A DNA stretch of 64,000 nt from Anaerohalosphaeraceae bacterium (lineage in GTDB: Bacteria > Planctomycetota > Phycisphaerae > Sedimentisphaerales > Anaerohalosphaeraceae). Positions 10,687 to 64,000 of the stretch are shown in pieces. Position 1 is the stretch's first letter, and every line of letters starts with the position of its first letter. The stretch covers positions 3,794 to 67,793 of the forward strand of contig JBNRMN010000052.1 in assembly GCA_050309605.1 (NCBI GenBank). Reading direction: 5' to 3'. Made by a program: the position numbers and the translations under genes. The notes below the pieces were generated by a model. It searched no databases, had not been told where the DNA came from, and was given only the letters and a program-made list of their open reading frames with translations.

Positions 10687-10715
10687 TTAACAATATACGG
10701 TAATGATCAGTATTC

Positions 10716-13010: not shown

Positions 13011-13070
13011 CTTTCAGCCTTTCATCTGCATTAAAATGACCTGCTCGGCGTTCTGCCCAACACCTTTCAC

Positions 13071-13119
13071 AAGACAAAAAGTCTCGGCGGGATTGCACCT
13101 ATCCCGAACCCGCCGAGAC
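13071..13119 (-). terminator. Intrinsic terminator downstream of the 1264-aa gene
   Basis: On the minus strand an 11-bp perfect stem (GTCTCGGCGGG ... CCCGCCGAGAC, 17-nt loop) is followed directly by TTTTTGTCTT. It lies 20 nt after the stop at 13140. Confidence 0.6.
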
Positions 13120-13139
13120 CTCGTATTCAGGCACGCCGT

Positions 13140-19328: not shown

Positions 19329-19412
19329 CTGCTTTCAGCGAAATCGGCTTGTTCCGTCAAACCCCCATAAAACGCTATGTCTTTGTTTATACCGACCAAC
19401 CTATCCATGCGT

Positions 19413-26560: not shown

Positions 26561-26579
26561 AGGCACTGTCCTTTCCAAT

Positions 26580-44633: not shown

Positions 44634-44649
44634 CACGCCGTCGCCCGAT

Positions 44650-44855
44650 ACGGGATACGGATAGATGGGACGTTTTCCAAGGCGTGGCATTATCCGGCTC
44701 ACTCGCGCGGCTCGGCTATTGTACGATGACGCAACGCAACATCGCGCGCAATAGCGCGGCCGCGCAAGCGGCCCGATACAGGGATGCGGATATACCGGGG
44801 CATTTTCCAAGACGCCACATTATCCGGCTCACTCGCGCGGCTCGGCTGTTGCGCA
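44650..44855. repeat. REP/BIME-like element cluster (A-B-A arms), same family as 6040-6560
   Basis: A arms lie at 44692-44722 and 44822-44851, and a B arm at 44750-44778. The flanking GGATACGGATAGATGGGACGTTTTCCAA almost repeats 6217-6244. Confidence 0.9.
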
Positions 44856-49660: not shown

Positions 49661-51478
49661 TTATCTTCGTTTCAATTCCGTCAACAAATCCCTGTAGGCA
49701 TCGCGCTGTTCCTTGTCGATCCGCCGATATTTCAATACATTATACGAAAACACATGCGGCTTGTAATTTTTATACCACCCATGACAAAGCGCATACGAAA
49801 CGCGATGGGAGGTAAACGCCGCCGGATAGTCGTCCATCACCATCCGTTCCATCCGTCGGTACAGTTCCGTTCGCTCCGGGCTGTCGAACATCACCTGAGC
49901 CTGCTCAAGCAGTGTATCATATTCCGGATTGGAATAAAAAAACTTATTTCCGCCGGGAGCAAAATATTTTGATCCAAACAGTTCCAGAAAATCGATCGCG
50001 TCCGGCATCCCGGCACTGACGCCGCTGGCAAACAACTGCAAATGGCCGTTATTCATTTCCGACAGATAGGTCGGCCAGTCCATATAATCAACATTCAGGC
50101 GAAGCCCGATCCGAGAGATGTATTTCTGCAAAAACTGGCCGTACTGACGGGAAAAATTGTCCGTCCCCGGCATGCCCAGCTTCAGCGGCCCAATAGGGCC
50201 GTCGTGAATGCGTTCGGCCTCTTTGAGCAGTTCAGCCGCTTCGGCCGGATCATAACGCGAAAACCCGTACTCGGCGATATTGGGATCATAGGAATTTAAC
50301 CCCGGCGAGACAAACCCATGGGCAACCTCAAATCGCCCGTTGAACAGCAAATCAATCATGGCCTGACGATCAATCGCACGCGAAATGGCCATACGCAGCG
50401 GCTTGTTCGCCCCCAGAACCGGATCTCTGAGATTAAAGCCCATCCAAAACGTGGACGGATCGACATAGGTTTCCAGCCGGATGTTGCGCTGAATCATTTC
50501 CTCGGTCAGTTCCCCGCCGCCGACGCCGATGGCCTCGTCAAAATTATCCTTGGGAATACCCGAAAAATCCAGCTCGCCCCGCATAAACAGCAGCCAGCGC
50601 GGCTGATCTTCTTCAATCACGCGAAAGATAATCCGGTCGGCAAAGGGAAGCGGTTGGCCCGCATCATCCAGCAAGCCGGCCTCCGCATCGCCCGATTCCC
50701 CCTCGGACGGATACACCTGCCCCCGCCAGTTGGCGTTGCGCACCAGTTCGACATAGCTGCCGCGACGCCAGGCCTTGAGCCGATACGGACCGGTCCCCAC
50801 GGGACGATTGCGAATCTGAGCACGATAATAATCGACCGCCTCATGCGGTACCGGCGCTGCGGAGACATCCGAAAGCATGGATTCGACCAACTGCGGCCAG
50901 GGACGAATCAGTTTGATTTGCAGGGTATAATCGTCCAGTGCCCGAAGCCCTTCGACCTCATAGCTGTAATCAACGGCCCATTCATCGGGAAACTGCTTGG
51001 TGTAGTCGCGAAAGGCATCAAGCCCGACGACGCGATCATTCCATGAGGGCCAGTTTTGACTGCGATATTTGACGTTGGCAATGCGTTTCAGGGCGTACAC
51101 AAAATCGTGCGCCGTCACGTGGCGCCCTTTGCCCTCCGGAAAACACGGGTCGTCCTGGTATTGAATCCCTTGCTTGATGCGAATGGTATAAGTCAGCTTA
51201 TCCTCACTGATGTCCGGCATACCGTCAGCCAGCAGCGGAATAATCTCATACGGCCGCTTCAAGTAATGGTACTCATACAGCGGTTCATAGATATTGCCCG
51301 CGACCGTCATTCCATAAACGTCGCGCAAATTGCCGCTGTCCAGCGTCTGAACTTTCGTAACCAGCGACAAATGAAGCACGCTCTGGTCGTCGTCGTGCGG
51401 GGTTCTGTGCCATCCGCAGCCGTAAAACGCCGTACAGACAATCAGCCATACGGCCAAAAGCTTAAACGTCAGCAGCAT
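49661..51478 (-). CDS. ABC transporter substrate-binding protein, family 5 (OppA/DppA-like), copy 2
   Basis: SBP_bac_5 pattern, paralogous to 51510-53351 (shared PCFP.G.GR..TAHDFV.A.KRIANVK and WPQLV). I placed the start at M24 (51478) to remove overlap with the upstream gene. Confidence 0.85.
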   Translation of the reverse strand: MLLTFKLLAVWLIVCTAFYGCGWHRTPHDDDQSVLHLSLVTKVQTLDSGNLRDVYGMTVAGNIYEPLYEYHYLKRPYEIIPLLADGMPDISEDKLTYTIRIKQGIQYQDDPCFPEGKGRHVTAHDFVYALKRIANVKYRSQNWPSWNDRVVGLDAFRDYTKQFPDEWAVDYSYEVEGLRALDDYTLQIKLIRPWPQLVESMLSDVSAAPVPHEAVDYYRAQIRNRPVGTGPYRLKAWRRGSYVELVRNANWRGQVYPSEGESGDAEAGLLDDAGQPLPFADRIIFRVIEEDQPRWLLFMRGELDFSGIPKDNFDEAIGVGGGELTEEMIQRNIRLETYVDPSTFWMGFNLRDPVLGANKPLRMAISRAIDRQAMIDLLFNGRFEVAHGFVSPGLNSYDPNIAEYGFSRYDPAEAAELLKEAERIHDGPIGPLKLGMPGTDNFSRQYGQFLQKYISRIGLRLNVDYMDWPTYLSEMNNGHLQLFASGVSAGMPDAIDFLELFGSKYFAPGGNKFFYSNPEYDTLLEQAQVMFDSPERTELYRRMERMVMDDYPAAFTSHRVSYALCHGWYKNYKPHVFSYNVLKYRRIDKEQRDAYRDLLTELKRR

Positions 51479-51509
51479 TGCCGACGCCGAAAAGCACCGC
51501 CCTGGCAAG

Positions 51510-53351
51510 TTATCGAAATGTCTTCTTGTAACGTTCACGCTTGTCATTGTCCACTTGGAAAAATTTCGTCAGACCCATTCCGTTCGTATCGGGTCGATAG
51601 GAGTTCGGCACAATGTTTTCCACCCAGTCATGATGCAGCAGATACGAGATGCGATGATAGACATACGCCGCCGGCAAATCATGGACGACAATCCGCTGCG
51701 CCCGGTGATACAATGCGGTTCGTTCCGGACTGTCCGGCATCACGGAAATCTGCTCATAAATCGCGTCAAATTCAGGATTGCTGTATTGGGTGCTGTTGGG
51801 CCAGGGCGAATTCTTACTGTAATACACCTGCATAAAATTTTCCGCATCGGGATAATCGGCGATCCATCCGGAAAAAAACATCTGATGGCTGCCGTTGCGC
51901 ATCCGCTCCAAAAACGTCGGCCAGTCGAACATCTCCAGTTCCACCGTCAAGCCGATCTGAGCCATACAGCTCTGCAAAAACTGCCCCATCTGGCGAATCG
52001 TCGCGTCGGTGCCGCCCATCGCCAAACGCAACCGTCCCAACGGACCGCCGTGGATCCGCTCGGCCTCCTGTAAATACGTCTTAGCGCGGGCCAAATCCCG
52101 CTGCGATGAAGAAATGTCTTCAATCGTCGGATCATACCCCTGCATCACCGGCGGAATATAGCCGTGTGCGACCCTGCCGCGACCGTTCAAAAACAATTCG
52201 ATAAATCGCTCCCGGTCGATGCTGTAACTAATCGCTTTGCGCAGCGCAAGATTGCCGCCCACTGTCCTGTCGGACATCGTGAAGCCGACCCAAAAGGTAT
52301 TCGGCTCATCAAAGGTCCTCAATTGAATGTTTCGCTCTTTCATCATCTCGGTCATCTCGACGCCCATCGAAATCACCTGGCCGAAATTGTCTTTGGGAAT
52401 ACTGTTAATATCCAGCTCGCCCCGAATAAACAGCAGCCAGCGCGGCTGGTCTTCAATGATGACCCGCCAGAAGACGCGATCAATATAAGGCAGACGCCGG
52501 GATGTCCCGTCCTGCTCTGATACAATCCAGTGATAATTCGGATTTCGCTCGGCTTCGATAAAACTGCCCCGCCGCCATCGAACCAGACGGTACGCCCCGG
52601 TTCCGACGGGATTGGAGCCGATACGCTTGCCGTAATACGCAGCCGCTTCACGCGCGATCGGCGCGGTGGCGGTATATTGAAGCCACATCACCAACTGCGG
52701 CCAGGGACGCACCAGTCGCACCACCAGCATATAATCATCCTCGGCGTACAGCCCCTCCACGTGCCGGTTGTAATCGACCTGATCCGGCTCGCATTGCTTG
52801 GTGTATTCGCGAAACGCATCCAAACCGACGATCCGCCCGTCAAATATCCACCAGCTTTTACTTCGGTTTTTGACGTTGGCGATGCGCTTCCAGGCAAACA
52901 CAAAATCGTGCGCCGTCAGTTCTCGCCCTTGACCGTCCGGAAAACAGGGATTGTCGTGAAAATAGACCCCCTTGCGGACGGGAATGTGGTAAACCAAACC
53001 GTCTTCGCTGATCTGAGGCATATCCGCCGCCAACAGGGGAACCATCCGATACGGACGTTCGGTGTAATCATAATCGTATAAACACTCAAAAATATCCCCC
53101 GCAACGGCATGGGTGACCGCATCCCCCATTTCCGCCGGATCCAGCGTCTGAATACTTTCGCGCAACCGATGATAAATTATCATTTCATCCGTACTGTGCG
53201 GACTTGTGCGGTCACAGCCAAATACAATCATCGCCGCGCCCAAGCTGCACACCCAAGCACCCAGCATCCGAAAAACACGATGCTTCGTGTCGGTAGATTC
53301 TGTAGAGCGGCCTGTTCTGCCGTTATGCTGTCGTACCGTCTTCTTGCTCAT
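51510..53351 (-). CDS. ABC transporter substrate-binding protein, family 5 (OppA/DppA-like), copy 1
   Basis: SBP_bac_5 pattern with a signal/lipoprotein-like N-terminus (VCSLGAAMIVFGC). Confidence 0.85.
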   Translation of the reverse strand: MSKKTVRQHNGRTGRSTESTDTKHRVFRMLGAWVCSLGAAMIVFGCDRTSPHSTDEMIIYHRLRESIQTLDPAEMGDAVTHAVAGDIFECLYDYDYTERPYRMVPLLAADMPQISEDGLVYHIPVRKGVYFHDNPCFPDGQGRELTAHDFVFAWKRIANVKNRSKSWWIFDGRIVGLDAFREYTKQCEPDQVDYNRHVEGLYAEDDYMLVVRLVRPWPQLVMWLQYTATAPIAREAAAYYGKRIGSNPVGTGAYRLVRWRRGSFIEAERNPNYHWIVSEQDGTSRRLPYIDRVFWRVIIEDQPRWLLFIRGELDINSIPKDNFGQVISMGVEMTEMMKERNIQLRTFDEPNTFWVGFTMSDRTVGGNLALRKAISYSIDRERFIELFLNGRGRVAHGYIPPVMQGYDPTIEDISSSQRDLARAKTYLQEAERIHGGPLGRLRLAMGGTDATIRQMGQFLQSCMAQIGLTVELEMFDWPTFLERMRNGSHQMFFSGWIADYPDAENFMQVYYSKNSPWPNSTQYSNPEFDAIYEQISVMPDSPERTALYHRAQRIVVHDLPAAYVYHRISYLLHHDWVENIVPNSYRPDTNGMGLTKFFQVDNDKRERYKKTFR

Positions 53352-53366
53352 CGGTCAAGCCGATAC

Positions 53367-54476
53367 TCACCTCGCCGGCGGAGGGGGTAACTGGGGCGGA
53401 GTATGCCTGGGGCGCCCCGCGTCGGTTTGTCCATAATTAAACTTCAAACGTGTGGCCAGATGGCCCGGCCCCATATCACTGCCAAAATAGGCCTCAAATT
53501 CGCGATCCAGACCCGATCCGCCGCGCTGAAGAATGCGGATAAACGGGGTTTGCTGCTCCATAATACGGGTTAATACCTGACTGTCCACTTCAGCAATTAC
53601 AGTGGCCACTGCATTGCGCTGATCCTCGGTCAAGGGACTCGGATCGGCCATATAACGCTGGAAAACCAGCGACAACAGCTCCGCAAAACGACGCGCCATC
53701 GCCGCACGCGCCTCGGATTCCCGTTGATCCAAAATAAGCTGACCCATCGACCGGAGCAATATGGCATCGAACTGCTCGTCATGGACGTTCCAGCTCAGAT
53801 AGGCGTCAATCCGGCGCTGCGCAACAGCCATCAGAATATCGCGGGCCGTCTCATGGTTGACCATGGCCGCAAAGGTAACAATCGTTCGCAGAATTTGCGT
53901 ATCCGACTCGTTAGAGACACGCTCACGCAGCGCGTCCAGAATCCTTTCCGTCAGGACTTCATCCCCGATAGACGGATCAGTAAGCTGAACCGCAACCCCC
54001 GAACCGGCCACGCACTTGACCGCCCAATAGCGAAGCACTCCGTCAGGATCATCCAAACGCTCCAGGCCGAACTCTGCAAGCAGAGGGCTGTGCAGTTGAG
54101 CCGTCAGAATCATTAAATTCCGTCGCATCAGCGTCTTTTTCTCGGACGGCTCCCAACGCCCGACCGTCTCAAACGCCTGCTGCAAATGCTGCCGGCCGAT
54201 CTGCACATAACCGGCCGCGTACAGGCTGAGCGGCTCGCTGCCTTTTTCCTGCTGGATCTGACGGCGAATCGCTACAATCTGATCAGATTCCTCAGCCAGC
54301 AGCATGGCATCCAGGGCTATACGCCAAAAATCATTGACAACCGCACGATCCGAATCGCTCATCTGGCCGCCGCTGCTGACCAGCCGCTCACGAACGCTCG
54401 CGATTCTGTCGGTCGGAACCACCGCATATACCGCCGTGATTGCGCAGACCAAGAAAAAGACTATTGTTTGCTTCAT
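53367..54476 (-). CDS. Secreted all-helical hypothetical protein (possibly HEAT/ARM-like), first gene of the ABC operon
   Basis: It has a signal peptide (MKQTIVFFLVCAITAVYA), helix-rich low-complexity repeats and a Pro-rich C-terminus. I recognise no family. Confidence 0.55.
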   Translation of the reverse strand: MKQTIVFFLVCAITAVYAVVPTDRIASVRERLVSSGGQMSDSDRAVVNDFWRIALDAMLLAEESDQIVAIRRQIQQEKGSEPLSLYAAGYVQIGRQHLQQAFETVGRWEPSEKKTLMRRNLMILTAQLHSPLLAEFGLERLDDPDGVLRYWAVKCVAGSGVAVQLTDPSIGDEVLTERILDALRERVSNESDTQILRTIVTFAAMVNHETARDILMAVAQRRIDAYLSWNVHDEQFDAILLRSMGQLILDQRESEARAAMARRFAELLSLVFQRYMADPSPLTEDQRNAVATVIAEVDSQVLTRIMEQQTPFIRILQRGGSGLDREFEAYFGSDMGPGHLATRLKFNYGQTDAGRPRHTPPQLPPPPAR

Positions 54477-54845
54477 TATCCCGCCACTTCAAAATAAATA
54501 GATCTTCTACATCGACTATCGGTTCAGCCAAATGCAAAACGTTTACCGCACAAGAAGATACCCCCCTGTCCGAGGCCTGTCAAGGTAATTCATTTGTATT
54601 ATAGTGCGTCATTCGACCAATTTGAAGCCTCGTCGGTACATATAGAGTCCGATAAAAAAAGTCTGTCATTTTTTTATCGCTTTATGAAGCTTTCTTGCCA
54701 GACGACGGTTATTATGACTTCGAAATCCGCCGAAAAAATGGTATAAATAATTTACGGCGAACTTTTCAAAATTCAGAACAGTAGATTTCTTATAACGATA
54801 TTTTTACTCTGAAAAACGCCATAATCGCACATATATGATCGTATC

Positions 54846-55919
54846 ATGACAACGCCTTGGATAAAGACGCGAAACGGACATTTCAGGACCGTGGTGTGGT
54901 CAGTCGCGGCGGTGCTGTTATCACTGGTCGCCCTGACGGAAGTCATCGCCAACGGCGCTGACGCTGCACCTGCTGCCGATCAACAACAGGCGCCATCAGC
55001 CGAAAAAGAAGAGCAAAAAGACCCCAATGCACCAATACCACCCCCTGCTCACCGCGATAACGCCCCATCCGATCCCAACCAGCCGCCGGCCAACGGCCGC
55101 ATTGAGAACGAAAAAGAAGAAGATGATGACGACGACTCAATGTTTCCCGATGCGGAAGATATGGTCGAGCTGTTTGAGCTTTTTAGTCGAATATTCAATG
55201 ATCAATACATCTCCGAGACCGGCTTTGTGGATTACGCCACGCTTCGTCGCAAACGGGCCGATCTGATCAAGGCATCCAATCTGCTCGAAAAGCTGCACCC
55301 GGCGGTGTTGATGAGCCTGGATCGAGAGCAGCGAGTCGCCTTTTGGATCAATACCTACAATACCTGCACGCTGAAATTGATTATCGATAACTACCCCATT
55401 CAGCCCAAGTGGTATATGATTCTGTATCCAAGCAACAGCATTATGCAGATTCCGGGGGCTGCAACGAAGGTCTTTTTTCGAATTATGGGGCTGGAGTATA
55501 ACCTGAAAGAAATGCGCAATGACTTGCTTTTGGATCGGTACAGGGACCCGCGGATCTGTTTTGCGTTGACCGAGGCAGCGCGCGGCGGCGCTATCCTGCG
55601 CAATGAACCGTATCTGCCTGACAAACTTGAAGAGCAGCTGGACGACCAGGTCCATCGCTTTCTCGATTCACCGCAAGGCCTGCGGATCGACCGACAGAAT
55701 AACGTGCTCCATCTGTCTCATGTCTTTTCGATGAATAAAAAGGTGTTTCTTGAATCGGAATACGCCGAAATTCTCCGTTTTCGTGCTCGAAAACCCGAAG
55801 AACGGGCCTGGCTCAATTTTCTGTCCAAATACCTGCCCCAAGAGGATGCCCAGTGGCTGGACGCCAACGATCCGGCGATCCGCTTTATTGACTTTGACTG
55901 GAACCTCAATGAAAAATAA
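54846..55919 (+). CDS. DUF547 domain protein with an acidic, Pro-rich low-complexity N-terminal region
   Basis: Seen: a TM/signal anchor, the acidic stretch [18 protein letters not shown], and a DUF547-like core ([25 protein letters not shown]). Confidence 0.65.
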
Positions 55920-55970
55920 CCATCTCACCCGCTGCGCCCTGTGAATTCCCATTTTCTGTATGCTTTTTGT

Positions 55971-55999
55971 TTGACCCCATGAACTGCCGCGGTTATAGT
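55971..55999 (+). promoter_or_regulatory. Sigma70-like promoter upstream of metK
   Basis: TTGACC (55971-55976), a 17-nt spacer, then TATAGT (55994-55999). This leaves a leader of only ~40 nt. Confidence 0.45.
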
Positions 56000-56047
56000 T
56001 TATCATTTATTTTTATTGACGCATATAACCTTTGGGAGTCCAGACAA

Positions 56048-57253
56048 ATGGCGCAAAAGAAAGTTACAGAAAATGGTCGTTTTCATGGTCGCGGCCACTT
56101 GTTTACCAGTGAATCGGTCACCATGGGACATCCGGACAAAGTCGCCGACCAAATATCCGACGCCATCCTGGATGCCATGTTGGAACAGGACCCGGACAGC
56201 CGAGTGGCCTGCGAAACGCTGGTTGCCACCGGAATGGCCGTCATTGCCGGCGAAGTCACCACCAAGGCCGTCGTCAATATTGCCGATGTGGTCCGCACAA
56301 CCATCAAAGAAATCGGTTACACCAATCCGCAAATCGGGTTTGACGCCGAGAATTGCGCCGTGATCGTCGCCCTGGGCAAGCAAAGCCCCGACATCTCACA
56401 AGGCGTTACCGAAGGTCAGGGCCTGCACAAAGAACAAGGCGCCGGCGACCAGGGACTCATGTTCGGCTTTGCCTGCCGGGAAACACCCGCCCTGATGCCA
56501 ATGCCGATTTATCTGGCGCACAAAATTACCAATCGACTGGCATCCATGCGGCAAAACGGCAAGCTGCCCTGGCTCAGGCCGGACGGCAAGAGCCAGGTCA
56601 CAGTCGAATACGGCGACAACGGCAAACCCAAACGCATTCACACTGTCGTTGTCTCCACACAGCACGCCGAAGATATCTCTTATCGCGAGATAAAAAAACA
56701 GATCATTGAAAACATTATCCTGCCCGTGCTGCCGGCCAAACTAGTCGATAAACAATTGATCGTTCACGTCAACCCCACCGGACGATTCGTGACCGGAGGC
56801 CCCAAAGGCGACTGCGGCCTGACCGGACGCAAAATTATCGTCGATACCTACGGCGGACGCGGCAGCCACGGCGGCGGCGCCTTCAGCGGAAAAGACCCCT
56901 CCAAGGTCGATCGCTCGGCCAGTTATATGGCTCGCTACATCGCCAAAAACATCGTCGCAGCCGGGCTTGCCGATGCCTGCGAAGTGCAGCTTTCTTATGC
57001 CATCGGCGTTGCAGAGCCGATCAGCGTATTGGTTGATACCGAAGGAACCGGAAAAATCGACGAGATCGAAATTGAACAGTTGGTGCGCAAGCTTTTCCCG
57101 TTGACGCCCAAGGGAATGATCAATCATCTCAAACTCAAACGTCCTATTTACAAAGAAACCGCCCGCAACGGCCACTTCGGGCGCAACTACAGGGATTTTA
57201 CGTGGGAACAGACCGACATGGCCGACAAACTTCGCAAAGCCGCCGGACTGTAA
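56048..57253 (+). CDS. metK: S-adenosylmethionine synthase
   Basis: Seen: [37 protein letters not shown] and [17 protein letters not shown] placed the start at the ATG at 56048 (MAQKK...). Confidence 0.97.
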
Positions 57254-57278
57254 ATTAGAGGCTTTGCAGCCGACGCGA

Positions 57279-58667
57279 TCAGAACGTCCCGTCAAAGATG
57301 GCTTTTGCGATATCGTTAATGGCTTGGCGCGTCGTGGCATTGCCGCCCTGCGTCAAGATGCTAAAGACAATATCGCCGCGCGGGGTTCGACAAATCCCTG
57401 AAAATGTGCGAACGCCGGCGATATAGCCGGTCTTGCCGTAGATGTGCCCGCGATACGGGGCCTGTTGAAAATACCGGGCAAGCGTGCCGTCGTTTCCGGC
57501 CTCAGCCAGCGTGGCCAGATACCGCTCGGCATACGGTTTTTTCAGCATGTCCTCAAGAACGGCGACAAGGACTTGACACGAAAGACGATTCTTGCGACTC
57601 AGGCCGCTGCCGTCGTCGAGTTCAAACTGATCGCTGTCCACGCCGAGCAGATTCAAATAGCGACCAACCAGCATCAGCCCGTGCGGCCATTCGCCATTGA
57701 TGCGCCCCTGTGTGTTCTCCGCGGAAATGGTTTTGATCAGGCTCTCGGCGGCCAGGTTCAGACTGTCCTTGTTGCAGCGGTCAAGCACATCCCAGACAGG
57801 CGTGGAAAAGGTGTGCAGCCGCTTTAAATCCGCTTCCTGCCGAACATATTTTTTCACAATCCTGCCGTTGACGGCAATACCGGCCGAGCGAAGATAGCCA
57901 ACAAGCAGATGGGCAAATAACCCGGCCGGCTGCTCAACGGCCGCATCAAAACCCGCGGATTGATTAAGATTGCCGCGGATGGAGAGCCGATTGGGCGTCG
58001 TCGTACGATAGCCCCCGATGGCGCTGTTGCCGCTGTTGATCAATCGAAGCTGATTGATCAGCGTCACATAATCGTTGTCCGGCTCCATTCGCAGCACCGC
58101 CCTGCCGTTTTGCCGCGTCGCCGTGATCCGCACACAGTTGCGATTGTAGTTCAGTCCACTGACTTCGCAGGCGTACGCCTGATTGAGCTGATCAGCCGGC
58201 CACGACGGATGCACACGATTCAAATCGAAGAAAAAACTGTCGATCACAATATCCTGGAGACGGTCAACACCGCGATCGGCCAGAATTCGAACGATTTCCC
58301 CAAAAATCCAGTCCTGACCGCGGCCATATCGCCGATCAATCAACGAATCACCCAATACCGGATCGCCGCCGCCGATAATGACGAGACTGTCGCCCAGCAA
58401 GGCAACGTGTGTTTGAAATTCGTAATCCGGGCCGAGATAATGCAGCACCGCAGCCGAAGTGGCCAGTTTCATATTCGACGCGGGAATCATCGTCTTTTCG
58501 GCGTTTCGACGATACAGCGTCGTGCCGTCCTCGGCCCGCAACGCCAGAATCGCAAACTCGGCCGTTCGTTGATTGGATCGGCTGATGATTTGCGAAATCG
58601 TGTCCGCTCTTGCCGGCCACTGCACCACCGACAACACAATGAGACCATAGATAAAAAAGGGTTTCAT
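57279..58667 (-). CDS. dacB: D-alanyl-D-alanine carboxypeptidase/endopeptidase (PBP4, peptidase S13)
   Basis: Seen: the SxxK motif IPASNMKL, SGN, the KTG motif YGKTGY, and a signal peptide. Confidence 0.85.
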   Translation of the reverse strand: MKPFFIYGLIVLSVVQWPARADTISQIISRSNQRTAEFAILALRAEDGTTLYRRNAEKTMIPASNMKLATSAAVLHYLGPDYEFQTHVALLGDSLVIIGGGDPVLGDSLIDRRYGRGQDWIFGEIVRILADRGVDRLQDIVIDSFFFDLNRVHPSWPADQLNQAYACEVSGLNYNRNCVRITATRQNGRAVLRMEPDNDYVTLINQLRLINSGNSAIGGYRTTTPNRLSIRGNLNQSAGFDAAVEQPAGLFAHLLVGYLRSAGIAVNGRIVKKYVRQEADLKRLHTFSTPVWDVLDRCNKDSLNLAAESLIKTISAENTQGRINGEWPHGLMLVGRYLNLLGVDSDQFELDDGSGLSRKNRLSCQVLVAVLEDMLKKPYAERYLATLAEAGNDGTLARYFQQAPYRGHIYGKTGYIAGVRTFSGICRTPRGDIVFSILTQGGNATTRQAINDIAKAIFDGTF

Positions 58668-58864
58668 AATGCCGTGTTATTTAACACAATCCGTACACCG
58701 TTTCAAGGGGCAACAACCCGTAAAATGGAAAATCATAACCCACGCGGCACACTCCACTGTACACGCTCTGAACCAGATCGCATGGCTTGTTGCCTTTGAA
58801 AAGGGCAAACTGGCCAAAAGGCAAAACGCGATGACGGCCCGTGAACGATGGCCAAAAAGAAATG

Positions 58865-59308
58865 TTAACAACCGCCCAAAACAGGCACCTCAAGATCCGC
58901 CAGGAACCGGCAGATATGTTGGATGGACTCAATAAATTTTTCGTATTCAATCGGCTTGACAACGTATAGACTGCATCCGAGTTGCTGACATTGCTCCACA
59001 GCCTGACGATCTCCGGTGGTGGTCAAAACCACGATGGGGATTTTTCGAAGTGTGTCATCGGATTTCAGCCGCCTCAGGACATCCAGACCATCGACTTTAG
59101 GCATTCGAATATCCAGCAGCAACAGCATCGGACGACGGTAATTGTCCGATTCCGGCGACTTGGCATCCTCAAGAAAGTCCAGTATTTCCTGGCCGTCATT
59201 GAAACGTAAAATCGTATTGAGCATACCGCTGCGAATCAGATTCCGCTCAATCAAGGCAAAATGCCCGTCGTCGTCCTCGGCAACAAGAATCAAAGCATCC
59301 TTATTCAT
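58865..59308 (-). CDS. Stand-alone response regulator receiver (CheY-like)
   Basis: Seen: the acidic pocket ILVAEDDD, the phospho-acceptor LLLLDIRMPKVDG, and VVLTT...VVKP. Confidence 0.9.
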   Translation of the reverse strand: MNKDALILVAEDDDGHFALIERNLIRSGMLNTILRFNDGQEILDFLEDAKSPESDNYRRPMLLLLDIRMPKVDGLDVLRRLKSDDTLRKIPIVVLTTTGDRQAVEQCQQLGCSLYVVKPIEYEKFIESIQHICRFLADLEVPVLGGC

Positions 59309-59588
59309 CGTAGCAGCCCGCCAACCCTTGTTGATTCGCTCTACTCGATGCGAAAAATTAGTTAAATTAAACTTAATACAAGTCGCAACTTATGTCAATG
59401 TTTTTATAAAAAAACAAAAACAGCCCATACCTGATCTTAATATAAATATATACGCCGCTCACGCAACCGCCAAAAACCAACATCCGACAAAGAAAATTCT
59501 GACTTTATGTAACTATCATAATATTAATAACTTACGTCAAAATCCTGTACCGGAAAAAAAAGTCTTGTTATTCTTGGCCGGGTGATTA

Positions 59589-59617
59589 TTGACAGCCCCG
59601 CGTTCGCCTGCTATATT
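59589..59617 (+). promoter_or_regulatory. Near-consensus sigma70-like promoter of the pyrK-pyrD leader
   Basis: TTGACA (59589-59594), exactly 17 nt of spacer, then TATATT (59612-59617). Confidence 0.5.
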
Positions 59618-59684
59618 GGTTACTGAAAAGATGGACAGTAGATTTTTGAGGTGAGAACTTGACGGCTTTCTTTGCCGTGGCGGG

Positions 59685-59728
59685 CTTCCGGAATATCAGT
59701 GGATGAATGTTCCGGAAGCTTTATTTTT
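59685..59728 (+). terminator. Intrinsic terminator-like hairpin inside the pyrK 5' leader (candidate attenuator)
   Basis: CTTCCGGAA (59685-59693), a 16-nt loop, then TTCCGGAAG (59710-59718), followed by CTTTATTTTT. It lies 28 nt upstream of the pyrK ATG and downstream of the promoter at 59589. Confidence 0.55.
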
Positions 59729-59755
59729 ACGTAACTTCTTTTTGGACAAAATCTT

Positions 59756-60709
59756 ATGGAAAAAGAGGTTGGCGCCGGACACAAAGGGAGCTTCACGGCC
59801 AACGTGCTGAGCAATCAGCAGATTCGCGAATGCTACTATCGCCTGAATCTAAAGCTTGACCCGATCGGAAGCCGTTTATTTGAAACAGCCAAGCCCGGCC
59901 GATTTGTGGAGATAGATTTGGCCGGACTGCCGCTGCCGCCCGAAGACAAAATTCCCCCCGCCCTGCGCGACGCAGCCCATCGACAAATCCTTCTGCGTCG
60001 TCCGTTCAGTTTTTCAGACGTCATCCTCACCCCCGGCCAGGACGGCCCAAGCGTCAAACTGGAGATCCTCTATTGCGTGCTCGGCCCGGCGACCTTGCGA
60101 ATGATGACGCTGGCCGGCGGCGACACCCTCAACCTAATCGGCCCGCTGGGCAACGGCTTTGCCCTGCCCGACACCCTCAAAAAAGCGGTTTTGATCGCCG
60201 GCGGCATGGGCGCCCCGCCGCTGCTGCATCTGGGCGGCTATCTGAAAAGGCACCGCCCCGAGGTGGAAACAATCTGCTTCGCCGGCGCCAGAAGTTGTGA
60301 GGATTTGCCCTTTACTCTCAAAATCGGCAATCTGACCGGCTTGGTACTCGAAGAATTTGACGTCCTGGGCATCTCCTCGCGCGTCGCTACAGACGACGGC
60401 TCGGCCGGCTTTAGGGGATTTGTCACCGATTGCGCCCGGCACTGGCTCCGCAACAATCAGCCGGACCCCAGCGAGACCCTCATTTATGCCTGCGGACCGG
60501 AACCGATGCTGGCCGAGGCGGCGCAACTGGCCGAGGACTTTGACCTGCCCTGTCAGGTCAGTATGGAGCGGATGATGGCATGCGGCATCGGGTTATGCCA
60601 AAGCTGCGCAGTGGAAATCAAAACTGATACCCCCGACCAAACCGAATATAAACTCTGCTGCAAAGATGGCCCGGTCTTTGACAGCCGAACTGTGATCTTT
60701 AAAGTATAA
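59756..60709 (+). CDS. pyrK: Dihydroorotate dehydrogenase (type 1B) electron-transfer subunit
   Basis: It has an FAD/NAD-binding fold and the C-terminal 2Fe-2S Cys cluster MACGIGLCQSCAV...CCKDGPVF. Confidence 0.9.
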   Translation: MEKEVGAGHKGSFTANVLSNQQIRECYYRLNLKLDPIGSRLFETAKPGRFVEIDLAGLPLPPEDKIPPALRDAAHRQILLRRPFSFSDVILTPGQDGPSVKLEILYCVLGPATLRMMTLAGGDTLNLIGPLGNGFALPDTLKKAVLIAGGMGAPPLLHLGGYLKRHRPEVETICFAGARSCEDLPFTLKIGNLTGLVLEEFDVLGISSRVATDDGSAGFRGFVTDCARHWLRNNQPDPSETLIYACGPEPMLAEAAQLAEDFDLPCQVSMERMMACGIGLCQSCAVEIKTDTPDQTEYKLCCKDGPVFDSRTVIFKV

Positions 60710-60716
60710 GGGGTTC

Positions 60717-60792
60717 AACAGCCGAGCCGCGCAAGCGGCCGGATAACAACATAATGTGGGATTAAAAGCCGAGCCGCGCAAGCGGCCGGATA
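60717..60792. repeat. Two direct copies of the REP-like element in the pyrK-pyrD spacer
   Basis: AGCCGAGCCGCGCAAGCGGCCGGATA occurs twice (about 60720-60746 and 60767-60792), in the same orientation. Confidence 0.9.
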
Positions 60793-60901
60793 GCAATACT
60801 TGGTGCGCAATGCAATCGGGCATCCTGTGCCGATGTATGTGGGTTGATGGACGACGCCGTTTTTATAAACTGAAAACCAACCTCTTTTTGCACATAAAAC
60901 G

Positions 60902-61834
60902 ATGGAACAAAACGTTGATTTGACCGTTGATTTTGCGGGGCTAACGCTCAGCAACCCGGTGCTGACGGCATCGGGAACCTGCGGCTATGCCGACGAACTG
61001 GCCGAGTTTATGGATGTTTCGAAGCTGGGCGGCGTCATTACCAAAAGCGTCACCGTCGCCCCGCGCAAAGGCAATCCCACCCCGCGAATCGTGGAAACCG
61101 ACGCCGGGATGCTCAACGCTATCGGGCTGGCCAATATCGGACTGGAACGCTTCGTCAGCGAAAAAATCCCCGTTCTCGAACAGCTCGGTACAACGGTCTT
61201 TGTCAACGTCGCCGGGCAGATGATCGACGATTATGTGCAGGTCGCCGAGCGGCTGGCCAAAGAACAGGCTGTCGCGGCTCTGGAATTAAACATAAGCTGC
61301 CCCAATGTCAAACAGGGCGGCATCAGCTTCGGTACCGATCCGACGCAGATTCGAGACATCACAAAACAGGTCAAAGCGGCCTGCGGCCCCAAACCCCTCA
61401 TCGTCAAGCTTACCCCGATGGTGACCGATATTTCCGCCGCCGCACGGGCCGCCGTCGAGGCCGGAGCCGACGCCCTGAGCATGGTCAACACCTTTACCGC
61501 TATGGTCATCGACATCGAAACCCGCCGTCCCGTGCTGGCCAATCGTACCGGCGGGCTGAGCGGCCCGGCTGTCAAGCCGATTGCGATCTATCTGGTCAGC
61601 AAAGTCTATCAGGAGGTCGCCAAGCCCGCCGGCGTCCCGATCCTCGGCGGAGGCGGCATACGAACCGCCGCCGATGCTGTCGAATTTATGATCGCCGGCG
61701 CCGCCGCCGTGACCATTGGAACCGCCACCTTCGTCCAGCCCGATACCGCGCTGCTCATCATCGAAGGCATCCGCCGCTACTGCACCCGAAAAGGACTGAC
61801 CACAATGACCGAACTGACCGGCAGCCTGCAATAA
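60902..61834 (+). CDS. pyrD: Dihydroorotate dehydrogenase (type 1B) catalytic subunit
   Basis: Seen: NPVLTASGTCGY, ELNISCPN (catalytic Cys), GGLSGPAVKPIA and GGGI. The product is 310 aa. Confidence 0.95.
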   Translation: MEQNVDLTVDFAGLTLSNPVLTASGTCGYADELAEFMDVSKLGGVITKSVTVAPRKGNPTPRIVETDAGMLNAIGLANIGLERFVSEKIPVLEQLGTTVFVNVAGQMIDDYVQVAERLAKEQAVAALELNISCPNVKQGGISFGTDPTQIRDITKQVKAACGPKPLIVKLTPMVTDISAAARAAVEAGADALSMVNTFTAMVIDIETRRPVLANRTGGLSGPAVKPIAIYLVSKVYQEVAKPAGVPILGGGGIRTAADAVEFMIAGAAAVTIGTATFVQPDTALLIIEGIRRYCTRKGLTTMTELTGSLQ

Positions 61835-61862
61835 CTCCGCCCTGAAGTTGCCGACGCATCTA

Positions 61863-61891
61863 CAACAGCCGAGCCGCGCAAGCGGTCGGAT
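61863..61891. repeat. Single REP-like element downstream of pyrD
   Basis: CAACAGCCGAGCCGCGCAAGCGGTCGGAT, differing from the 60717 copies by one nucleotide. Confidence 0.85.
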
Positions 61892-62015
61892 AACACTCTC
61901 CCACCGCACAGACACCCCCCACAGAACAAACTTCTCCGCGTCGCCTATTTTGAAATCTGAAATCTGTCTGCGAAATTGACACCAGTCCAGAAAACCGAAA
62001 GTCGCTCTTTCCCTG

Positions 62016-62273
62016 CTAAGGGGCAATACCCCGCACCCCCGTCCACTGGTCGTCGTAGTAATACCGCGTTGTCGTACCCGCTATCGCATCCACCGTCTCA
62101 ATCCTTCGGCCTAACGCATCATACGCGAACGTCGCGACCACAGTACTATCCGACCGCGACACCTTTGTCAAGCGATTTTCCATATCATATTCATAGACAT
62201 ACCCCCGATGGTCGCCCGTCAGATTCCCGGCGTCATCGTAAACACTAAAGATCGCAAATAGCCATATGATGAA
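62016..62273 (-). pseudogene. RHS/YD-repeat protein fragment (85 codons, no start codon, truncated at both ends)
   Basis: My own minus-strand translation gives FIIWLFAIFSVYDDAGNLTGDHRGYVYEYDMENRLTKVSRSDSTVVATFAYDALGRRIETVDAIAGTTTRYYYDDQWTGVRGIAP*. It contains three or four canonical YD repeats (YDxxGNL, YxYDxxNRL, FAYDALGRRI, YYYD). It is absent from the ORF track because it has no Met start. Confidence 0.7.
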
Positions 62274-62870
62274 TTAATCCATTTCAACATAATACCGCTT
62301 CCGAACCACTTCTTCATATGAAGCAGGCACAAGCCTGTCTTCGCACAAAAAATAATCTCGAAGAAATAATTGATAAGCCAACACCCTATTTCTGCGGTCT
62401 GTCCAGAAGCGAGCGTCAAGGCCGTTTTCCCATCGCTGATCTTTTTGTTGTGCTTCTTGAATTTTTCTGTCAAACTCCGCCGTCGAAACTAAAATGCCGT
62501 CGGGATTAGACTCCTTTAGATCATTATAGATTCCGGTTCGTAACGCCATTTCACTTTCGATCTGCCGAGCACGCTGTCGCAGGTATCGGACCCACCATCG
62601 CACCTTGTCAATCTCCGCCCAATCGGCCAAAGAGATGTGCTCGATATAAGCCAGTTCAAGTCGTACTGTCATAATCTCGGATATATCAATATCGTCGATG
62701 TAAAAGTCATTATTGATGCCTTCTCGAATGGCTTTTAAGTGTTCATGTACAAAATGGATGTCCGAGGGTAAAATAAAGACAAAGTAAAACAGACGCGGGA
62801 CGCCATGACCCAACGCAGCACCAATTAAAACAAAAACAACAGGCATCCCAAACATTTTCAATTTTTTCAT
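62274..62870 (-). CDS. Single-TM hypothetical protein, paralog B (candidate immunity protein)
   Basis: It has an N-terminal TM helix (MPVVFVLIGAALG) and is roughly 40% identical by eye to the ORF at 62920-63549 (RLELAYIE, WWVRYL, PDGILVS, EF..KI.EA.QKD, RDYFLC..RLVP.S.EE.VR.RY). The composition is AT-rich. GAGAGAG lies upstream of the ATG. Confidence 0.55.
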   Translation of the reverse strand: MKKLKMFGMPVVFVLIGAALGHGVPRLFYFVFILPSDIHFVHEHLKAIREGINNDFYIDDIDISEIMTVRLELAYIEHISLADWAEIDKVRWWVRYLRQRARQIESEMALRTGIYNDLKESNPDGILVSTAEFDRKIQEAQQKDQRWENGLDARFWTDRRNRVLAYQLFLRDYFLCEDRLVPASYEEVVRKRYYVEMD

Positions 62871-62919
62871 CTTGAACTCTCTCGTTCCAAACCATCAAGG
62901 CCTTATTAAGGAATGACGG

Positions 62920-63549
62920 CTACTCCATCATTTCTTCAAGTGCTTGAATCCGATAGCGATTTCGCACCCCTTCTTCGAAAGAACAAGGCACAAGTCTGTT
63001 ATTGCATAAAAAATAATCACGACGAGGCACATCATATTTTATAATTCCCTCTTTTCCATCAGGCCAGCTGCCATGCCACCAGCCGCGACTCCACTGTGCA
63101 TCTTTCTGCCGTGCCTCCTCGATTTTTTGTTCGAATTCTTCTGCCGAAACCAGGATACCGTCAGGATGTGTTTCTTTCAGTTCTTTTAGTTCATGAAAGA
63201 TTTCTGTTCTATTGCTGATTTGTGCAGAAGTAAACATTCCATACCTGTCAAGATACCGCACCCACCATTTTATCCTTTTTAGCTCGTTCAGATTGAACAA
63301 AGTCATATTCTCAATATAGGCCAACTCAAGTCGTAATTTCATCATTTCTCGTCTGTCATGATCATCTAAATACAACAACTCTCCGTTTAGGATGCTTCTC
63401 TGGATTGTGTTTAACGGTAGATACGCTTTCCTAACATCCTGACGAAAGTCACTAAAATAATAGCACAATGGACTTGAATAATAGCCAAGCACTATCCCAA
63501 TAAGAGTAAACACAATCGCAGCACTTTTCTTCTTTTTCTTCTTCTTCAT
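62920..63549 (-). CDS. Single-TM hypothetical protein, paralog A (candidate immunity protein)
   Basis: The N-terminus MKKKKKKKSAAIVFTLIGIVLG is a poly-Lys tract followed by a TM helix. I placed the start at 63549, 2 nt after the upstream ORF's stop, which suggests translational coupling. The track start at 63576 overlaps that upstream ORF. Confidence 0.55.
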   Translation of the reverse strand: MKKKKKKKSAAIVFTLIGIVLGYYSSPLCYYFSDFRQDVRKAYLPLNTIQRSILNGELLYLDDHDRREMMKLRLELAYIENMTLFNLNELKRIKWWVRYLDRYGMFTSAQISNRTEIFHELKELKETHPDGILVSAEEFEQKIEEARQKDAQWSRGWWHGSWPDGKEGIIKYDVPRRDYFLCNNRLVPCSFEEGVRNRYRIQALEEMME

Positions 63550-63551
63550 AG

Positions 63552-64000
63552 TTAATTTCTCTTTTTTACAGGGCACCTCACCGATGGGTCAAAAAGCGGC
63601 GTACATGATCCTACTCCGAGTGATCCGAATCCTGACGTATCTATTGGCTCCATTATACCAGGAATATCAAAATCTGTCGTCGTCTTCATACCAGAACAGC
63701 ATTCTGTTATACATCGATATAATCTTCGACAACGATATGTTTTACCCTGCTGATTCAGTTTGATGAGATTCTTAATAATCGCTTCATTGGGTGTTATGTA
63801 ACCCTTACCGACATATAAAAGCATATCTGCGTCGGTCCATTTCCCATCCGGCCCCGTTCCAATAAGTTTCACACTAACAGGAACATACCCAGCAATCTGA
63901 TAATTTACCCACTCCCACAAGGTTTCCTCTTGAAAAATATTCAAAGGCCAAGGCAGGTTAACTCTGTATTTCAATGTAACCCATCGAGCCATTATCTTTC
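63552..64000 (-). CDS. Hypothetical Cys-rich protein or C-terminal domain. The reading frame is open to the window edge, so the true start is unknown.
   Basis: The frame is open from 64000. The first in-window Met is at 63992, and there is no upstream stop within the window. The sequence (...GKWTDADMLLYVGKGYITPNEA...CRRLYRCITECCSG...) matches no family I recognise. It sits immediately upstream of the tandem paralogs. Confidence 0.4.
   Translation of the reverse strand, partial: KIMARWVTLKYRVNLPWPLNIFQEETLWEWVNYQIAGYVPVSVKLIGTGPDGKWTDADMLLYVGKGYITPNEAIIKNLIKLNQQGKTYRCRRLYRCITECCSGMKTTTDFDIPGIMEPIDTSGFGSLGVGSCTPLFDPSVRCPVKKRN

What the first reader, a model, noticed from the sequence alone, without database searches (positions are those of the whole stretch)
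62016..64000. AT-rich terminal island: RHS/YD remnant, two tandem paralogous single-TM genes and an edge-truncated upstream ORF (candidate polymorphic toxin/immunity cassette)
From about 62270 to the window end the composition turns visibly AT-rich, unlike the surrounding GC-rich chromosome. On the minus strand the order is as follows. First, an ORF open to the window edge (63552-64000+), with a Cys-rich C-terminus and no family I recognise. Second, starting 2 nt after its stop, a 209-aa protein with a poly-Lys tract and one TM helix. Third, a roughly 40%-identical paralog (198 aa). Fourth, an 85-codon YD-repeat (RHS core) fragment with no start codon that breaks off after YYYDDQW. RHS and other polymorphic-toxin loci typically carry a variable C-terminal toxin tip followed by one or more cognate or orphan immunity genes and recombination debris of the core. 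On that model the edge ORF would be a toxin tip (of an RHS or other carrier beyond 64000) and the two paralogs a new immunity family. Neither the putative toxin nor the paralogs resemble any domain I can name, so this is the best candidate in the window for an undescribed system.
Basis: partly seen in the sequence, partly recalled or inferred. Interest (0 to 1): 0.7.

Follow-up and report, generated by a model that had tools for sequence, protein, structure and literature searches.

The report
RHS toxin tip with twin immunity genes
The AT-rich end of the window is the tail of an RHS "polymorphic toxin" locus in a Phycisphaerales (Planctomycetota) bacterium: a swappable toxin tip, two related membrane-anchored genes that are probably its antidotes, and a broken RHS fragment. 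The kind of system is well known, but this tip and these antidote genes match no described family.

Summary

- **The carrier.** An identical public contig (L001) extends the edge ORF about 200 nt past 64000. There it reads ...YDPETGRFMQRDPAEYVDGMNLYEYVRSNPINNFDPYGL. This matches the end of the RHS-associated core domain (TIGR03696, 47.6 bits, cutoff 32.5) and contains the PxxxxDPxGL motif. The ORF is therefore a 177-aa RHS C-terminal tip.
- **The two downstream genes.** A 209-aa gene starts 2 nt after the tip's stop. A 198-aa paralog (42% identical) follows. Each has a Lys-rich N-terminus and a single hydrophobic anchor, so the body of the protein should face the periplasm.
- **The RHS fragment.** A truncated RHS core fragment follows (Pfam RHS_repeat, 7e-12) and breaks at about 62033-62040.
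- **The island.** A 91%-identical syntenic relative lacks the cassette. The boundary is at 61945/61946.
- **Rarity.** The tip has no detectable relative. The paralog family has three protein clusters among 5.8 billion, and a second locus shows the same tandem pair followed by an RHS fragment.
- **Calibration.** Five neighbouring Phycisphaerae RHS cassettes also have tips and downstream ORFs with no Pfam hit. All five downstream ORFs carry an N-terminal hydrophobic anchor. This is normal for the clade.

Verdict: a real system and a new member of a known kind. Toxin and immunity functions are inferred, not shown.

The parts
63552..64000 (-). 3' part of an RHS gene. It encodes residues 30-177 of a 177-aa variable C-terminal tip, the putative toxin. 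The RHS core end (PINNFDPYGL) lies about 86-202 nt beyond the window edge.
   Evidence: The ORF is open to the window edge. L001 is identical DNA that extends it. TIGR03696 matches L001 ORF aa 1-39 at 47.6 bits. The tip has no His, 7 Cys and no hydrophobic segment, with pI 8.8. No homolog was found anywhere.
62920..63549 (-). Paralog A (209 aa), the predicted cognate immunity protein. It has a Lys-rich N-terminus, one membrane anchor and a body of about 175 aa predicted to face the periplasm.
   Evidence: It starts 2 nt after the tip's stop. The hydrophobic segment is at aa 10-29. The AF2 model has pLDDT 75.7, is helical with a small beta-sheet, and has no Foldseek match. Gene callers call it as 209 aa on three Logan contigs, and the protein (P0003) is also on record from an NCBI contig. 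dN/dS against the first copy in L002 is 0.28.
62274..62870 (-). Paralog B (198 aa), a second immunity-type paralog lying 49 nt downstream of A.
   Evidence: It is 42% identical to A, E 9e-52. The hydrophobic segment is at aa 3-25. Its ortholog P0002 (64% identical) sits in the same second position in L002. dN/dS against P0002 is 0.20.
62016..62273 (-). Truncated RHS/YD core fragment, the 5' stub of an orphan rhs module. RHS homology covers 62249-62043, and the break falls at about 62033-62040 inside the conserved ...AIAGTTTRYYYDDQ block.
   Evidence: Pfam RHS_repeat 7e-12 and TIGR01643 3e-6. It is 63% identical at the amino-acid level to Phycisphaerae RHS. It is 88-91% identical at the nucleotide level to orphan fragments in L011, L013 and L014 over 62129-62033. 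Orphan fragments in L007 begin at the same core position.
61946..62015 (.). Junction DNA between the island and the core genome, with no similarity to anything found. The island boundary is at 61945/61946.
   Evidence: Synteny with relative L030 (91.5% nt identity) runs from window 50902 to 61945 and then stops. L030 continues with an IS3-type orfA and HSP20 genes and has no RHS.
61858..61896 (-). A copy of a REP-like 39-nt hairpin repeat. It lies on the core-genome side, just inside the synteny boundary.
   Evidence: There are 6 copies in the window against 0 expected. It folds as a hairpin with a GCAA loop.

Best explanation
This is the distal end of an RHS polymorphic-toxin locus, a strain-variable island in a Phycisphaerales bacterium.

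**Shown here.** The edge ORF is the C-terminus of an RHS protein. The core ends at PINNFDPYGL and is followed by a 177-aa variable tip.

**From established RHS biology (PMC8636562, PMC8765631).** The RHS shell encloses the tip. The aspartyl-protease module at the core end cleaves after DPxGL, and the released tip is the toxic cargo delivered to neighbouring cells.

**Inferred from position (PMC3150448).** The gene that starts 2 nt after the tip's stop, paralog A, is the cognate immunity protein.

**Inferred from sequence features.** A and B each have a Lys-rich cytoplasmic N-terminus followed by a single anchor, so their roughly 170-aa bodies should face the periplasm. The tip is soluble, lacks His and has six Cys in its last 59 residues. 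I therefore propose that the toxin acts in the periplasm or on the outer face of the inner membrane, probably stabilised by disulfides, and that it is neutralised there by direct binding to A.

The absence of His argues against these toxin classes: HNH and related nucleases, HExxH peptidases, Cys-His amidases, and Ser-Asp-His or HKD lipases. A Glu/Asp-based glycosidase-type activity or a non-enzymatic binder would fit.

**Paralog B.** B is an old duplicate that has been kept under purifying selection and is conserved in tandem in a second locus. I take it as a second immunity specificity (polyimmunity). The alternative is an obligate partner of A.

**The RHS fragment.** It is the stub of a displaced orphan rhs-CT module, cut off at the island boundary.
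For: RHS identity:
- Searches show the RHS core end and the DPxGL motif.
- Searches confirm the RHS fragment.
- Searches give its closest relatives, which are Phycisphaerae RHS genes and orphan fragments.
- One search places the host: its PyrD is in a >=90% identity cluster named Phycisphaerales.

Operon layout:
- One search shows the 2-nt gap between the tip and A and the 49-nt gap between A and B.

Conservation of the pair:
- Searches show that L002 has two tandem paralogs followed by an RHS core fragment.
- One search gives dN/dS of 0.20-0.28.

Topology and composition:
- Searches give the single N-terminal anchors, no hydrophobic segment in the tip, 0 His and 7 Cys.

Clade pattern:
- One search shows that 5 of 5 ORFs downstream of RHS tips in Phycisphaerae-type loci carry N-terminal hydrophobic signals or anchors. 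It also shows that two other tips there are likewise His-free with 9 Cys.

Island status:
- Searches show that a syntenic relative lacks the cassette.
- Searches show the GC and GC3 drop.

Literature:
- PMC3150448 for rhs-CT/rhsI and orphan modules.
- PMC3482391 for polyimmunity loci, and for planctomycetes among the lineages with polymorphic toxin and immunity domains.
- PMC9637101 for a precedent of a membrane-embedded Rhs immunity protein (Tsi5).
Against: - No toxicity, binding or localisation data exist.
- The tip has no homolog, and its AF2 model is useless (pLDDT 31.7), so the proposed activity rests on exclusion only.
- Only 39 residues of the RHS core are visible. The N-terminal delivery domain is unseen, and it is not known whether the gene is full length.
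- No secretion system was seen among the large ORFs of the window that were scanned.
- The N-terminal segment of A and B could be a cleaved signal peptide rather than an anchor. That would change the anchoring but not the compartment.
- The evidence that the pair is conserved rests on a single second locus of 1155 bp.
- The homolog searches did not recover the tip's own parent protein. These protein collections therefore expose RHS tips poorly, and the absence of relatives is weaker evidence than it looks.
Confidence: 0.75

Rival explanations
1. The anatomy is the same, but the tip belongs to a promoter-less orphan rhs-CT fragment rather than to a full-length RHS gene. In that case the cassette is a silent reserve, used only after recombination, and only the immunity genes are expressed.
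For: Arrays of orphan fragments 2.4-3.3 kb apart are common in related loci. Only 39 core residues are visible. Short-read contigs break inside RHS sequence on both sides of the cassette, which is what multiple RHS copies would cause. A sigma-70-like site lies inside the tip ORF, 63680-63652, and could drive the immunity genes alone, although consensus matches of this kind are weak evidence.
Against: Nothing speaks directly against it. The source contig is reported as 68,395 bp. If that contig is the window's source, up to about 4.4 kb of further DNA lies beyond the window and could hold a large part of a complete shell. The cassette is identical or nearly so (99.93-100%) across three sequencing runs.
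Confidence: 0.3
2. A and B work together as one heteromeric, membrane-anchored immunity complex. They do not represent two separate specificities.
For: Both copies are kept in tandem in two loci that have diverged to dS > 1.3, and both are under purifying selection. No toxin-tip remnant lies between A and B, unlike a classical orphan module.
Against: Only two loci are known. Tandem immunity paralogs with separate specificities are well documented (PMC3482391, PMC5361080). The first-position copies have diverged further (51%) than the second-position copies (62-64%), which suggests different selective pressures on the two positions.
Confidence: 0.25
3. The paralogs are not immunity proteins. 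They are membrane proteins with some other role, such as export or release helpers or unrelated cargo of the island.
For: They match no known immunity family. Their fold has no structural match.
Against: The 2-nt coupling to the tip's stop is the position where RhsI genes are found (PMC3150448), and all five related cassettes show the same arrangement. Known RHS accessory genes (EagR, DUF4123 and similar) lie upstream of the rhs gene, not downstream (my own knowledge).
Confidence: 0.1
4. The locus is decaying debris and none of it functions.
For: The adjacent RHS fragment is truncated and has no start codon. The cassette lies at a rearrangement boundary next to a REP-like element, and the relative has an IS there.
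Against: The tip, A and B are all intact ORFs. A and B show dN/dS of 0.2-0.3. The sequence is identical or nearly so (99.93-100%) across independent samples.
Confidence: 0.05

Closest known systems
rhs-CT/rhsI toxin-immunity modules and orphan modules of Enterobacteria (Dickeya dadantii, Yersinia, Salmonella; PMC3150448, PMC3967940)
   Same: The core ends in PxxxxDPxGL, the sequence diverges abruptly after it, a small ORF follows immediately, RHS core fragments lie downstream, and the tip and immunity region has a lower GC content.
   Different: The host is a planctomycete with no T6SS context visible. The tip and the downstream proteins are unrelated to any described Rhs-CT or RhsI. There are two paralogous downstream genes with no toxin remnant between them, and their products are predicted to be membrane-anchored and periplasm-facing rather than cytoplasmic.
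Tse5 (RhsP1)/Tsi5 of Pseudomonas aeruginosa (PMC9637101, PMC10684867)
   Same: An Rhs toxin whose immunity protein is an inner-membrane protein, which implies a target in the cell envelope.
   Different: The Tse5 C-terminal domain forms membrane pores. The tip here has no hydrophobic segment (maximum KD19 0.72). Tsi5 has two TM helices and is small, whereas A and B have one anchor plus a large soluble domain. There is no sequence similarity.
Polyimmunity loci and orphan immunity arrays (PMC3482391; Vibrio cholerae arrays, PMC5361080)
   Same: Several immunity-type genes lie in tandem downstream of a polymorphic toxin.
   Different: This is a homogeneous pair of paralogs conserved as a pair, not a mixed array built up by successive displacement.
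RHS arrays of other Phycisphaerae MAGs (L007, L011, L013, L017)
   Same: The RHS core is related (63% aa; a conserved block at 88-91% nt). The tips are about 190-245 aa. The next ORF always has an N-terminal signal or anchor. Orphan fragments start at the same core position. Nothing has a Pfam hit.
   Different: Their tips and downstream ORFs are unrelated in sequence to those here. None has a tandem paralog pair.

Membership tests
RHS polymorphic toxin (rhs-CT/rhsI cassette) | RHS-associated core domain ending in the PxxxxDPxGL motif immediately before the variable region | tested here: met
   The L001 ORF reads ...SNPINNFDPYGL. TIGR03696 matches profile positions 38-76 of 76 at 47.6 bits, above the cutoff of 32.5.
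RHS polymorphic toxin (rhs-CT/rhsI cassette) | Long YD-repeat shell and an N-terminal trafficking domain (PAAR, signal peptide or similar) upstream | not testable with these tools
   Only 39 core residues beyond the window could be recovered. The NCBI contig of 68,395 bp was not retrievable.
RHS polymorphic toxin (rhs-CT/rhsI cassette) | Variable C-terminal tip of about 100-300 aa, unrelated between otherwise related RHS proteins | tested here: met
   The tip is 177 aa. It has no similarity to the tips of 20 related RHS loci or to anything else.
RHS polymorphic toxin (rhs-CT/rhsI cassette) | Small ORF immediately downstream on the same strand (immunity position) | tested here: met
   Paralog A starts 2 nt after the tip's stop.
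RHS polymorphic toxin (rhs-CT/rhsI cassette) | Tip is toxic and is specifically neutralised by the downstream protein | not testable with these tools
   This needs expression and rescue experiments.
RHS polymorphic toxin (rhs-CT/rhsI cassette) | Orphan or displaced RHS core fragments downstream | tested here: met
   Window 62249-62043 matches RHS_repeat at 7e-12. L002 shows the same arrangement.
Known toxin domain families (Pfam Ntox/Tox, NCBIfam, PDB sequences) | Significant profile or sequence match of the tip | tested here: not met
   The best Pfam hit is Phage_XkdX at 17 bits, below its 23.5 cutoff. PDB matches have E >= 0.96.
Known immunity families (Pfam Imm*, SUKH, SMI1 and others; PADLOC) | Significant profile match of paralogs A and B | tested here: not met
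   No family matches at E < 0.02. PADLOC gives none. The PDB profile search gives E >= 0.26. Foldseek gives E >= 1.6.
Pore-forming Rhs tips (Tse5-like) | Hydrophobic or glycine-zipper membrane-inserting segments in the tip | tested here: not met
   The maximum 19-residue Kyte-Doolittle mean is 0.72, with no window at or above 1.6.
CDI (CdiA-CT/CdiI) | VENN (or equivalent) pre-toxin motif on a filamentous haemagglutinin carrier | tested here: not met
   The demarcation motif is DPYGL on an RHS core, and there is no VENN.

The most novel reading that the evidence does not exclude
The tip is a new fold of periplasm-acting antibacterial toxin that is free of His and stabilised by disulfides. It is neutralised by a conserved two-paralog, membrane-anchored immunity pair. 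It would also be one example of a clade-wide habit: Phycisphaerae RHS toxins aim at the cell envelope (5 of 5 neighbouring cassettes have exported or anchored downstream proteins), in a phylum where the RHS delivery route is unknown.
Probability: 0.2. Interest if true: 0.6.

Novelty: new member of a known kind. Interest (0 to 1): 0.35.

Why it matters
This gives a concrete, compact candidate of about 1.8 kb (tip plus two genes) for a new antibacterial toxin and immunity pair. It comes from Planctomycetota, a phylum whose interbacterial weapons are essentially unstudied.

The predicted periplasmic orientation of the antidote proteins, together with a tip that has no His and many Cys, narrows the search to envelope targets. 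It also makes a simple experiment informative: express the tip in the cytoplasm or target it to the periplasm, with and without each paralog.

The wider pattern may be the more useful lead. In the Phycisphaerae-type RHS cassettes examined, the tips had no Pfam family and the downstream ORFs were exported or anchored. Beyond that, this is an ordinary example of a well-understood genetic architecture.

Tried and rejected
**Searches for tip homologs, all empty**
- Word-index search of 5.8 billion clusters.
- Exhaustive phmmer against 1.84 billion representatives, using the 148 aa that lie inside the window.
- JGI metagenome contigs.
- Plasmids by tblastn.
- PDB sequences.
- Caveat: none of the protein searches recovered the tip's own parent protein. 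RHS tips are probably hidden behind cluster representatives, or missing because the gene calls are cut at contig ends.

**Searches for paralog homologs**
- Only P0001, P0002 and P0003 were found.
- Genome, metagenome and viral contig scans found nothing. Plasmids gave nothing either.

**Structure**
- The single-sequence AF2 model of the tip has pLDDT 31.7 and was not used for fold search.
- The model of paralog A (pLDDT 75.7) has no Foldseek match in the PDB or BFVD.

**Extending the contig**
- Look-ups through A, B and PyrD returned only Logan contigs of 1-2 kb that break in RHS or REP repeats.

**Ideas rejected**
- tRNA-linked island: there are no tRNAs in the window.
- Rfam element: none found.
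- Defence system: no PADLOC match.
- Pore-forming tip: no hydrophobic segment.
- ADP-ribosyltransferase or deaminase motifs, checked by eye: the motif order or spacing is wrong.
- The 246-aa ORF at 61286-62026 lies mostly antisense to pyrD and is spurious.

**Other dead ends**
- A literature search for the sample accessions found nothing.
Full report
**What is in the sequence**

On the minus strand the window ends with four elements:
- An ORF open to the window edge, with its stop at 63552.
- A 209-aa ORF whose ATG (63549) lies 2 nt after that stop.
- A 198-aa ORF (62870-62274), 49 nt further on.
- Directly after its stop, an open frame with no start codon that reads ...VYDDAGNLTGDHRGYVYEYDMENRLTKV...AIAGTTTRYYYDDQW and then TGVRGIAP-stop.

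The two middle proteins are 42% identical (E 9e-52). The last frame matches Pfam RHS_repeat (7e-12) and TIGR01643 YD_repeat_2x.

The composition shift is real. GC falls from 0.54-0.64 to 0.38-0.46. GC3 is 0.37-0.44 for the three ORFs, against 0.65-0.73 for pyrD, pyrK, PBP4 and polA.

**The edge ORF is an RHS C-terminal tip**

An exact-protein look-up of paralog B returned a 2,037-bp Logan contig, L001. It is 100% identical to window 64000-62166 and extends 202 nt beyond the window. In it the frame stays open and reads YDPETGRFMQRDPAEYVDGMNLYEYVRSNPINNFDPYGL|MSNRIKLEP....

These 39 residues match the last 39 positions (38-76 of 76) of TIGR03696, the RHS repeat-associated core domain. The score is 47.6 bits against a curated cutoff of 32.5. 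They also contain the PxxxxDPxGL motif after which Rhs proteins diverge (PMC3150448).

The variable tip is therefore 177 aa, and residues 30-177 lie in the window.

**Host and island status**

The window's PyrD falls in a cluster at 90% identity or more whose representative is annotated as Phycisphaerales bacterium. The closest relatives of the RHS fragment are Phycisphaerae MAGs.

A syntenic contig from a relative, L030, is 91.5% identical at the nucleotide level from window 50902 to 61945 and then diverges. L030 continues with an IS3-type transposase orfA and HSP20 genes, and has no RHS.

The cassette is thus a strain-variable island whose boundary is at 61945/61946. That is about 110 nt past pyrD and just beyond one copy of a REP-like hairpin repeat.

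The window has no tRNA and no Rfam element. The large ORFs that were scanned encode glycoside hydrolases, an M60 peptidase, transporters, PolA and GlmS. No secretion system was seen among them.

**The RHS fragment**

Related loci show the usual array structure:
- An RHS core end followed by a tip.
- A small ORF.
- An orphan RHS fragment that begins at the same core position as the fragment here (L007: ...HDDTGNLTSDENGYGYAYDHDNRL...). It runs on through its own DPxG motif to another tip and another small ORF.

The window's fragment shares 88-91% nucleotide identity with orphan fragments in L011, L013 and L014, but only as far as 62033. In intact genes that point lies about 130 codons before the core end.

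The fragment is therefore the 5' stub of an orphan module whose remainder was lost at the island edge. Short-read contigs L001 and L003 both terminate at window 62166, inside this fragment. L001 also starts inside the RHS core end. Repeated RHS sequence bracketing a unique cassette would produce exactly this pattern.

**The paralogs**

The family is very rare. A profile search of 5.8 billion protein clusters found only three:
- A itself (P0003).
- B itself (P0001).
- P0002, which is 64% identical to B and comes from a 1,155-bp JGI contig, L002.

L002 carries the C-terminal 78 residues of a first copy, then P0002, then an RHS core fragment (AIEQTTTGYHSDVQR...LVYGNYIDEVL). The tblastn E-value of that fragment against Phycisphaerales RHS is 7e-7. 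The layout of two paralogs followed by an RHS fragment is therefore conserved in a second, well-diverged locus.

- The second-position copies are orthologous at 62-64% identity.
- The first-position copies are 51% identical.
- dN/dS is 0.20 for the second-position pair and 0.28 for the first-position pair, so both are real genes under purifying selection.

Each protein has a positively charged N-terminus (MKKKKKKKS in A, MKKLKM in B) followed by a single hydrophobic stretch. By the positive-inside rule, the remaining 170 or so residues should lie in the periplasm, either anchored in the membrane or released after signal-peptide cleavage.

An AF2 model of A built from the three-sequence alignment has pLDDT 75.7 and pTM 0.63. 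It is mostly helical with a small beta-sheet. It has no Foldseek match in the PDB or BFVD; the best E-values are 2.8 and 1.6. There is no Pfam, NCBIfam, PADLOC or PDB sequence match.

**The tip**

No relative was found in any collection. There is no family or PDB match either.

One caveat applies. Neither protein search recovered the tip's own parent protein, so RHS tips are evidently under-exposed in these clustered collections. The absence of relatives is weaker evidence than the database sizes suggest.

The single-sequence AF2 model is unusable, with pLDDT 31.7.

The sequence itself shows the following:
- No histidine.
- Seven Cys, six of them in the last 59 residues.
- Seven Trp.
- pI 8.8.
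- No hydrophobic segment.

From established knowledge of toxin catalytic sites, the lack of His argues against several classes: HNH/AHH/SHH-type nucleases, HExxH metallopeptidases, Cys-His amidases, and Ser-Asp-His or HKD lipases. The lack of hydrophobic segments argues against a Tse5-like pore former.

**Most likely mechanism**

The shown steps are these: an RHS core end with DPxGL, a variable tip, a tightly coupled downstream gene, a second conserved paralog, an RHS stub and island status.

The inferred steps are these:
- The tip is released by RHS autoproteolysis and delivered to competitor cells (PMC8636562, PMC8765631).
- A is the cognate immunity protein, by position (PMC3150448).
- The immunity bodies face the periplasm and the tip is Cys-rich and soluble, so the toxin acts in the periplasm or on the outer face of the inner membrane. 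It would be blocked there by binding.
- B is either a second specificity, as in polyimmunity (PMC3482391, PMC5361080), or a partner of A.

A membrane-embedded Rhs immunity protein has a precedent in Tsi5 (PMC9637101). That toxin, however, is a pore former and is unrelated in sequence.

**Calibration against the clade**

I extracted the tip and the next ORF from every RHS core end in the 21 loci fetched with the RHS fragment.

- In the five Phycisphaerae-type cassettes (two in L007, plus L011, L013 and L017), every downstream ORF has an N-terminal signal, lipoprotein signal or anchor.
- In the Verrucomicrobiota contig L006, Spirosoma and Paenibacillus loci, the downstream ORFs have no such segment.
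- Two of the Phycisphaerae tips (L007 tip 1 and L017) are also His-free, with nine Cys each.
- None of those five tips or five downstream ORFs has a Pfam match at E <= 0.01.

A tip and immunity gene with no recognisable domain, and an exported immunity protein, are therefore the norm for RHS cassettes in this clade. That lowers the surprise attached to this particular locus. The clade-wide pattern becomes the more interesting lead.

**Verdict**

This is a genuine, intact-looking RHS toxin-tip and immunity cassette in a Phycisphaerales genome. The tip has no detected relative, and the two-gene immunity-type family is very rare.

- Architecture: already well known.
- Components: new families.
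- Function: inferred only.
- Open question: whether the tip is attached to a full-length RHS gene.
- Novelty: new member of a known kind.
- Interest: about 0.35.

Noticed in passing
window 6257-6280, 6386-6409, 6499-6522 (+); 60719-60742, 60766-60789, 61866-61889 (-): A REP-like repeat of about 39 nt (core CAGCCGAGCCGCGCAAGCGGCCGGATAAC). It forms a short GC hairpin with a GCAA loop. There are 6 intergenic copies against 0 expected. One copy sits just inside the synteny boundary of the RHS island, and Logan contigs carrying pyrD break there.
   Followed up: partly
window 6078-6526 and 44642-44851; also L030 about 11570-13050 and 19260-19430: A dispersed and tandem intergenic repeat of about 130 nt (80-94% identity between copies). 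It is shared with the related Phycisphaerales contig L030 and has not been identified.
   Followed up: no
L030 11191-11550 (relative), equivalent to just past window 61945: The relative has an IS3-family transposase orfA (HTH_Tnp_1) followed by two HSP20 genes where the window has the RHS island. This position is a rearrangement hotspot in the lineage.
   Followed up: partly
window 6730-16934 (-) and 24593-26635 (-): A cluster of genes for glycan or mucin degradation. It holds a GH2 beta-galactosidase with an F5/8 type C domain (1318 aa), an M60 enhancin-like peptidase (764 aa), a 1264-aa protein with Laminin_G_3, Big_9 and PA14 domains, and a GH20 hexosaminidase.
   Followed up: no
window 27524-29893 (-): A 789-aa ORF with no Pfam family at E <= 1e-5.
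   Followed up: no
L007 5491-6069, L017 10697-11314 (Phycisphaerae RHS tips): Two other RHS tips of about 190-205 aa also have no His and 9 Cys each, and each is followed by an exported or anchored ORF. None has a Pfam hit. Phycisphaerae RHS tips may form an unexplored set of toxins directed at the cell envelope.
   Followed up: partly
L011 2994-3070; L013 520-599; L014 10000-10079; window 62112-62033: The block GRRIExVDAIAGTTTRYYYDDQ is conserved at 88-91% nucleotide identity between different genomes. It is repeatedly the point where orphan RHS fragments begin (L002, L013, L014) or end (the window, L011). This looks like a preferred recombination joint inside the RHS core.
   Followed up: partly
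window 61286-62026 (-): A 246-aa ORF runs mostly antisense to pyrD. It is almost certainly spurious, a product of the high GC content.
   Followed up: no
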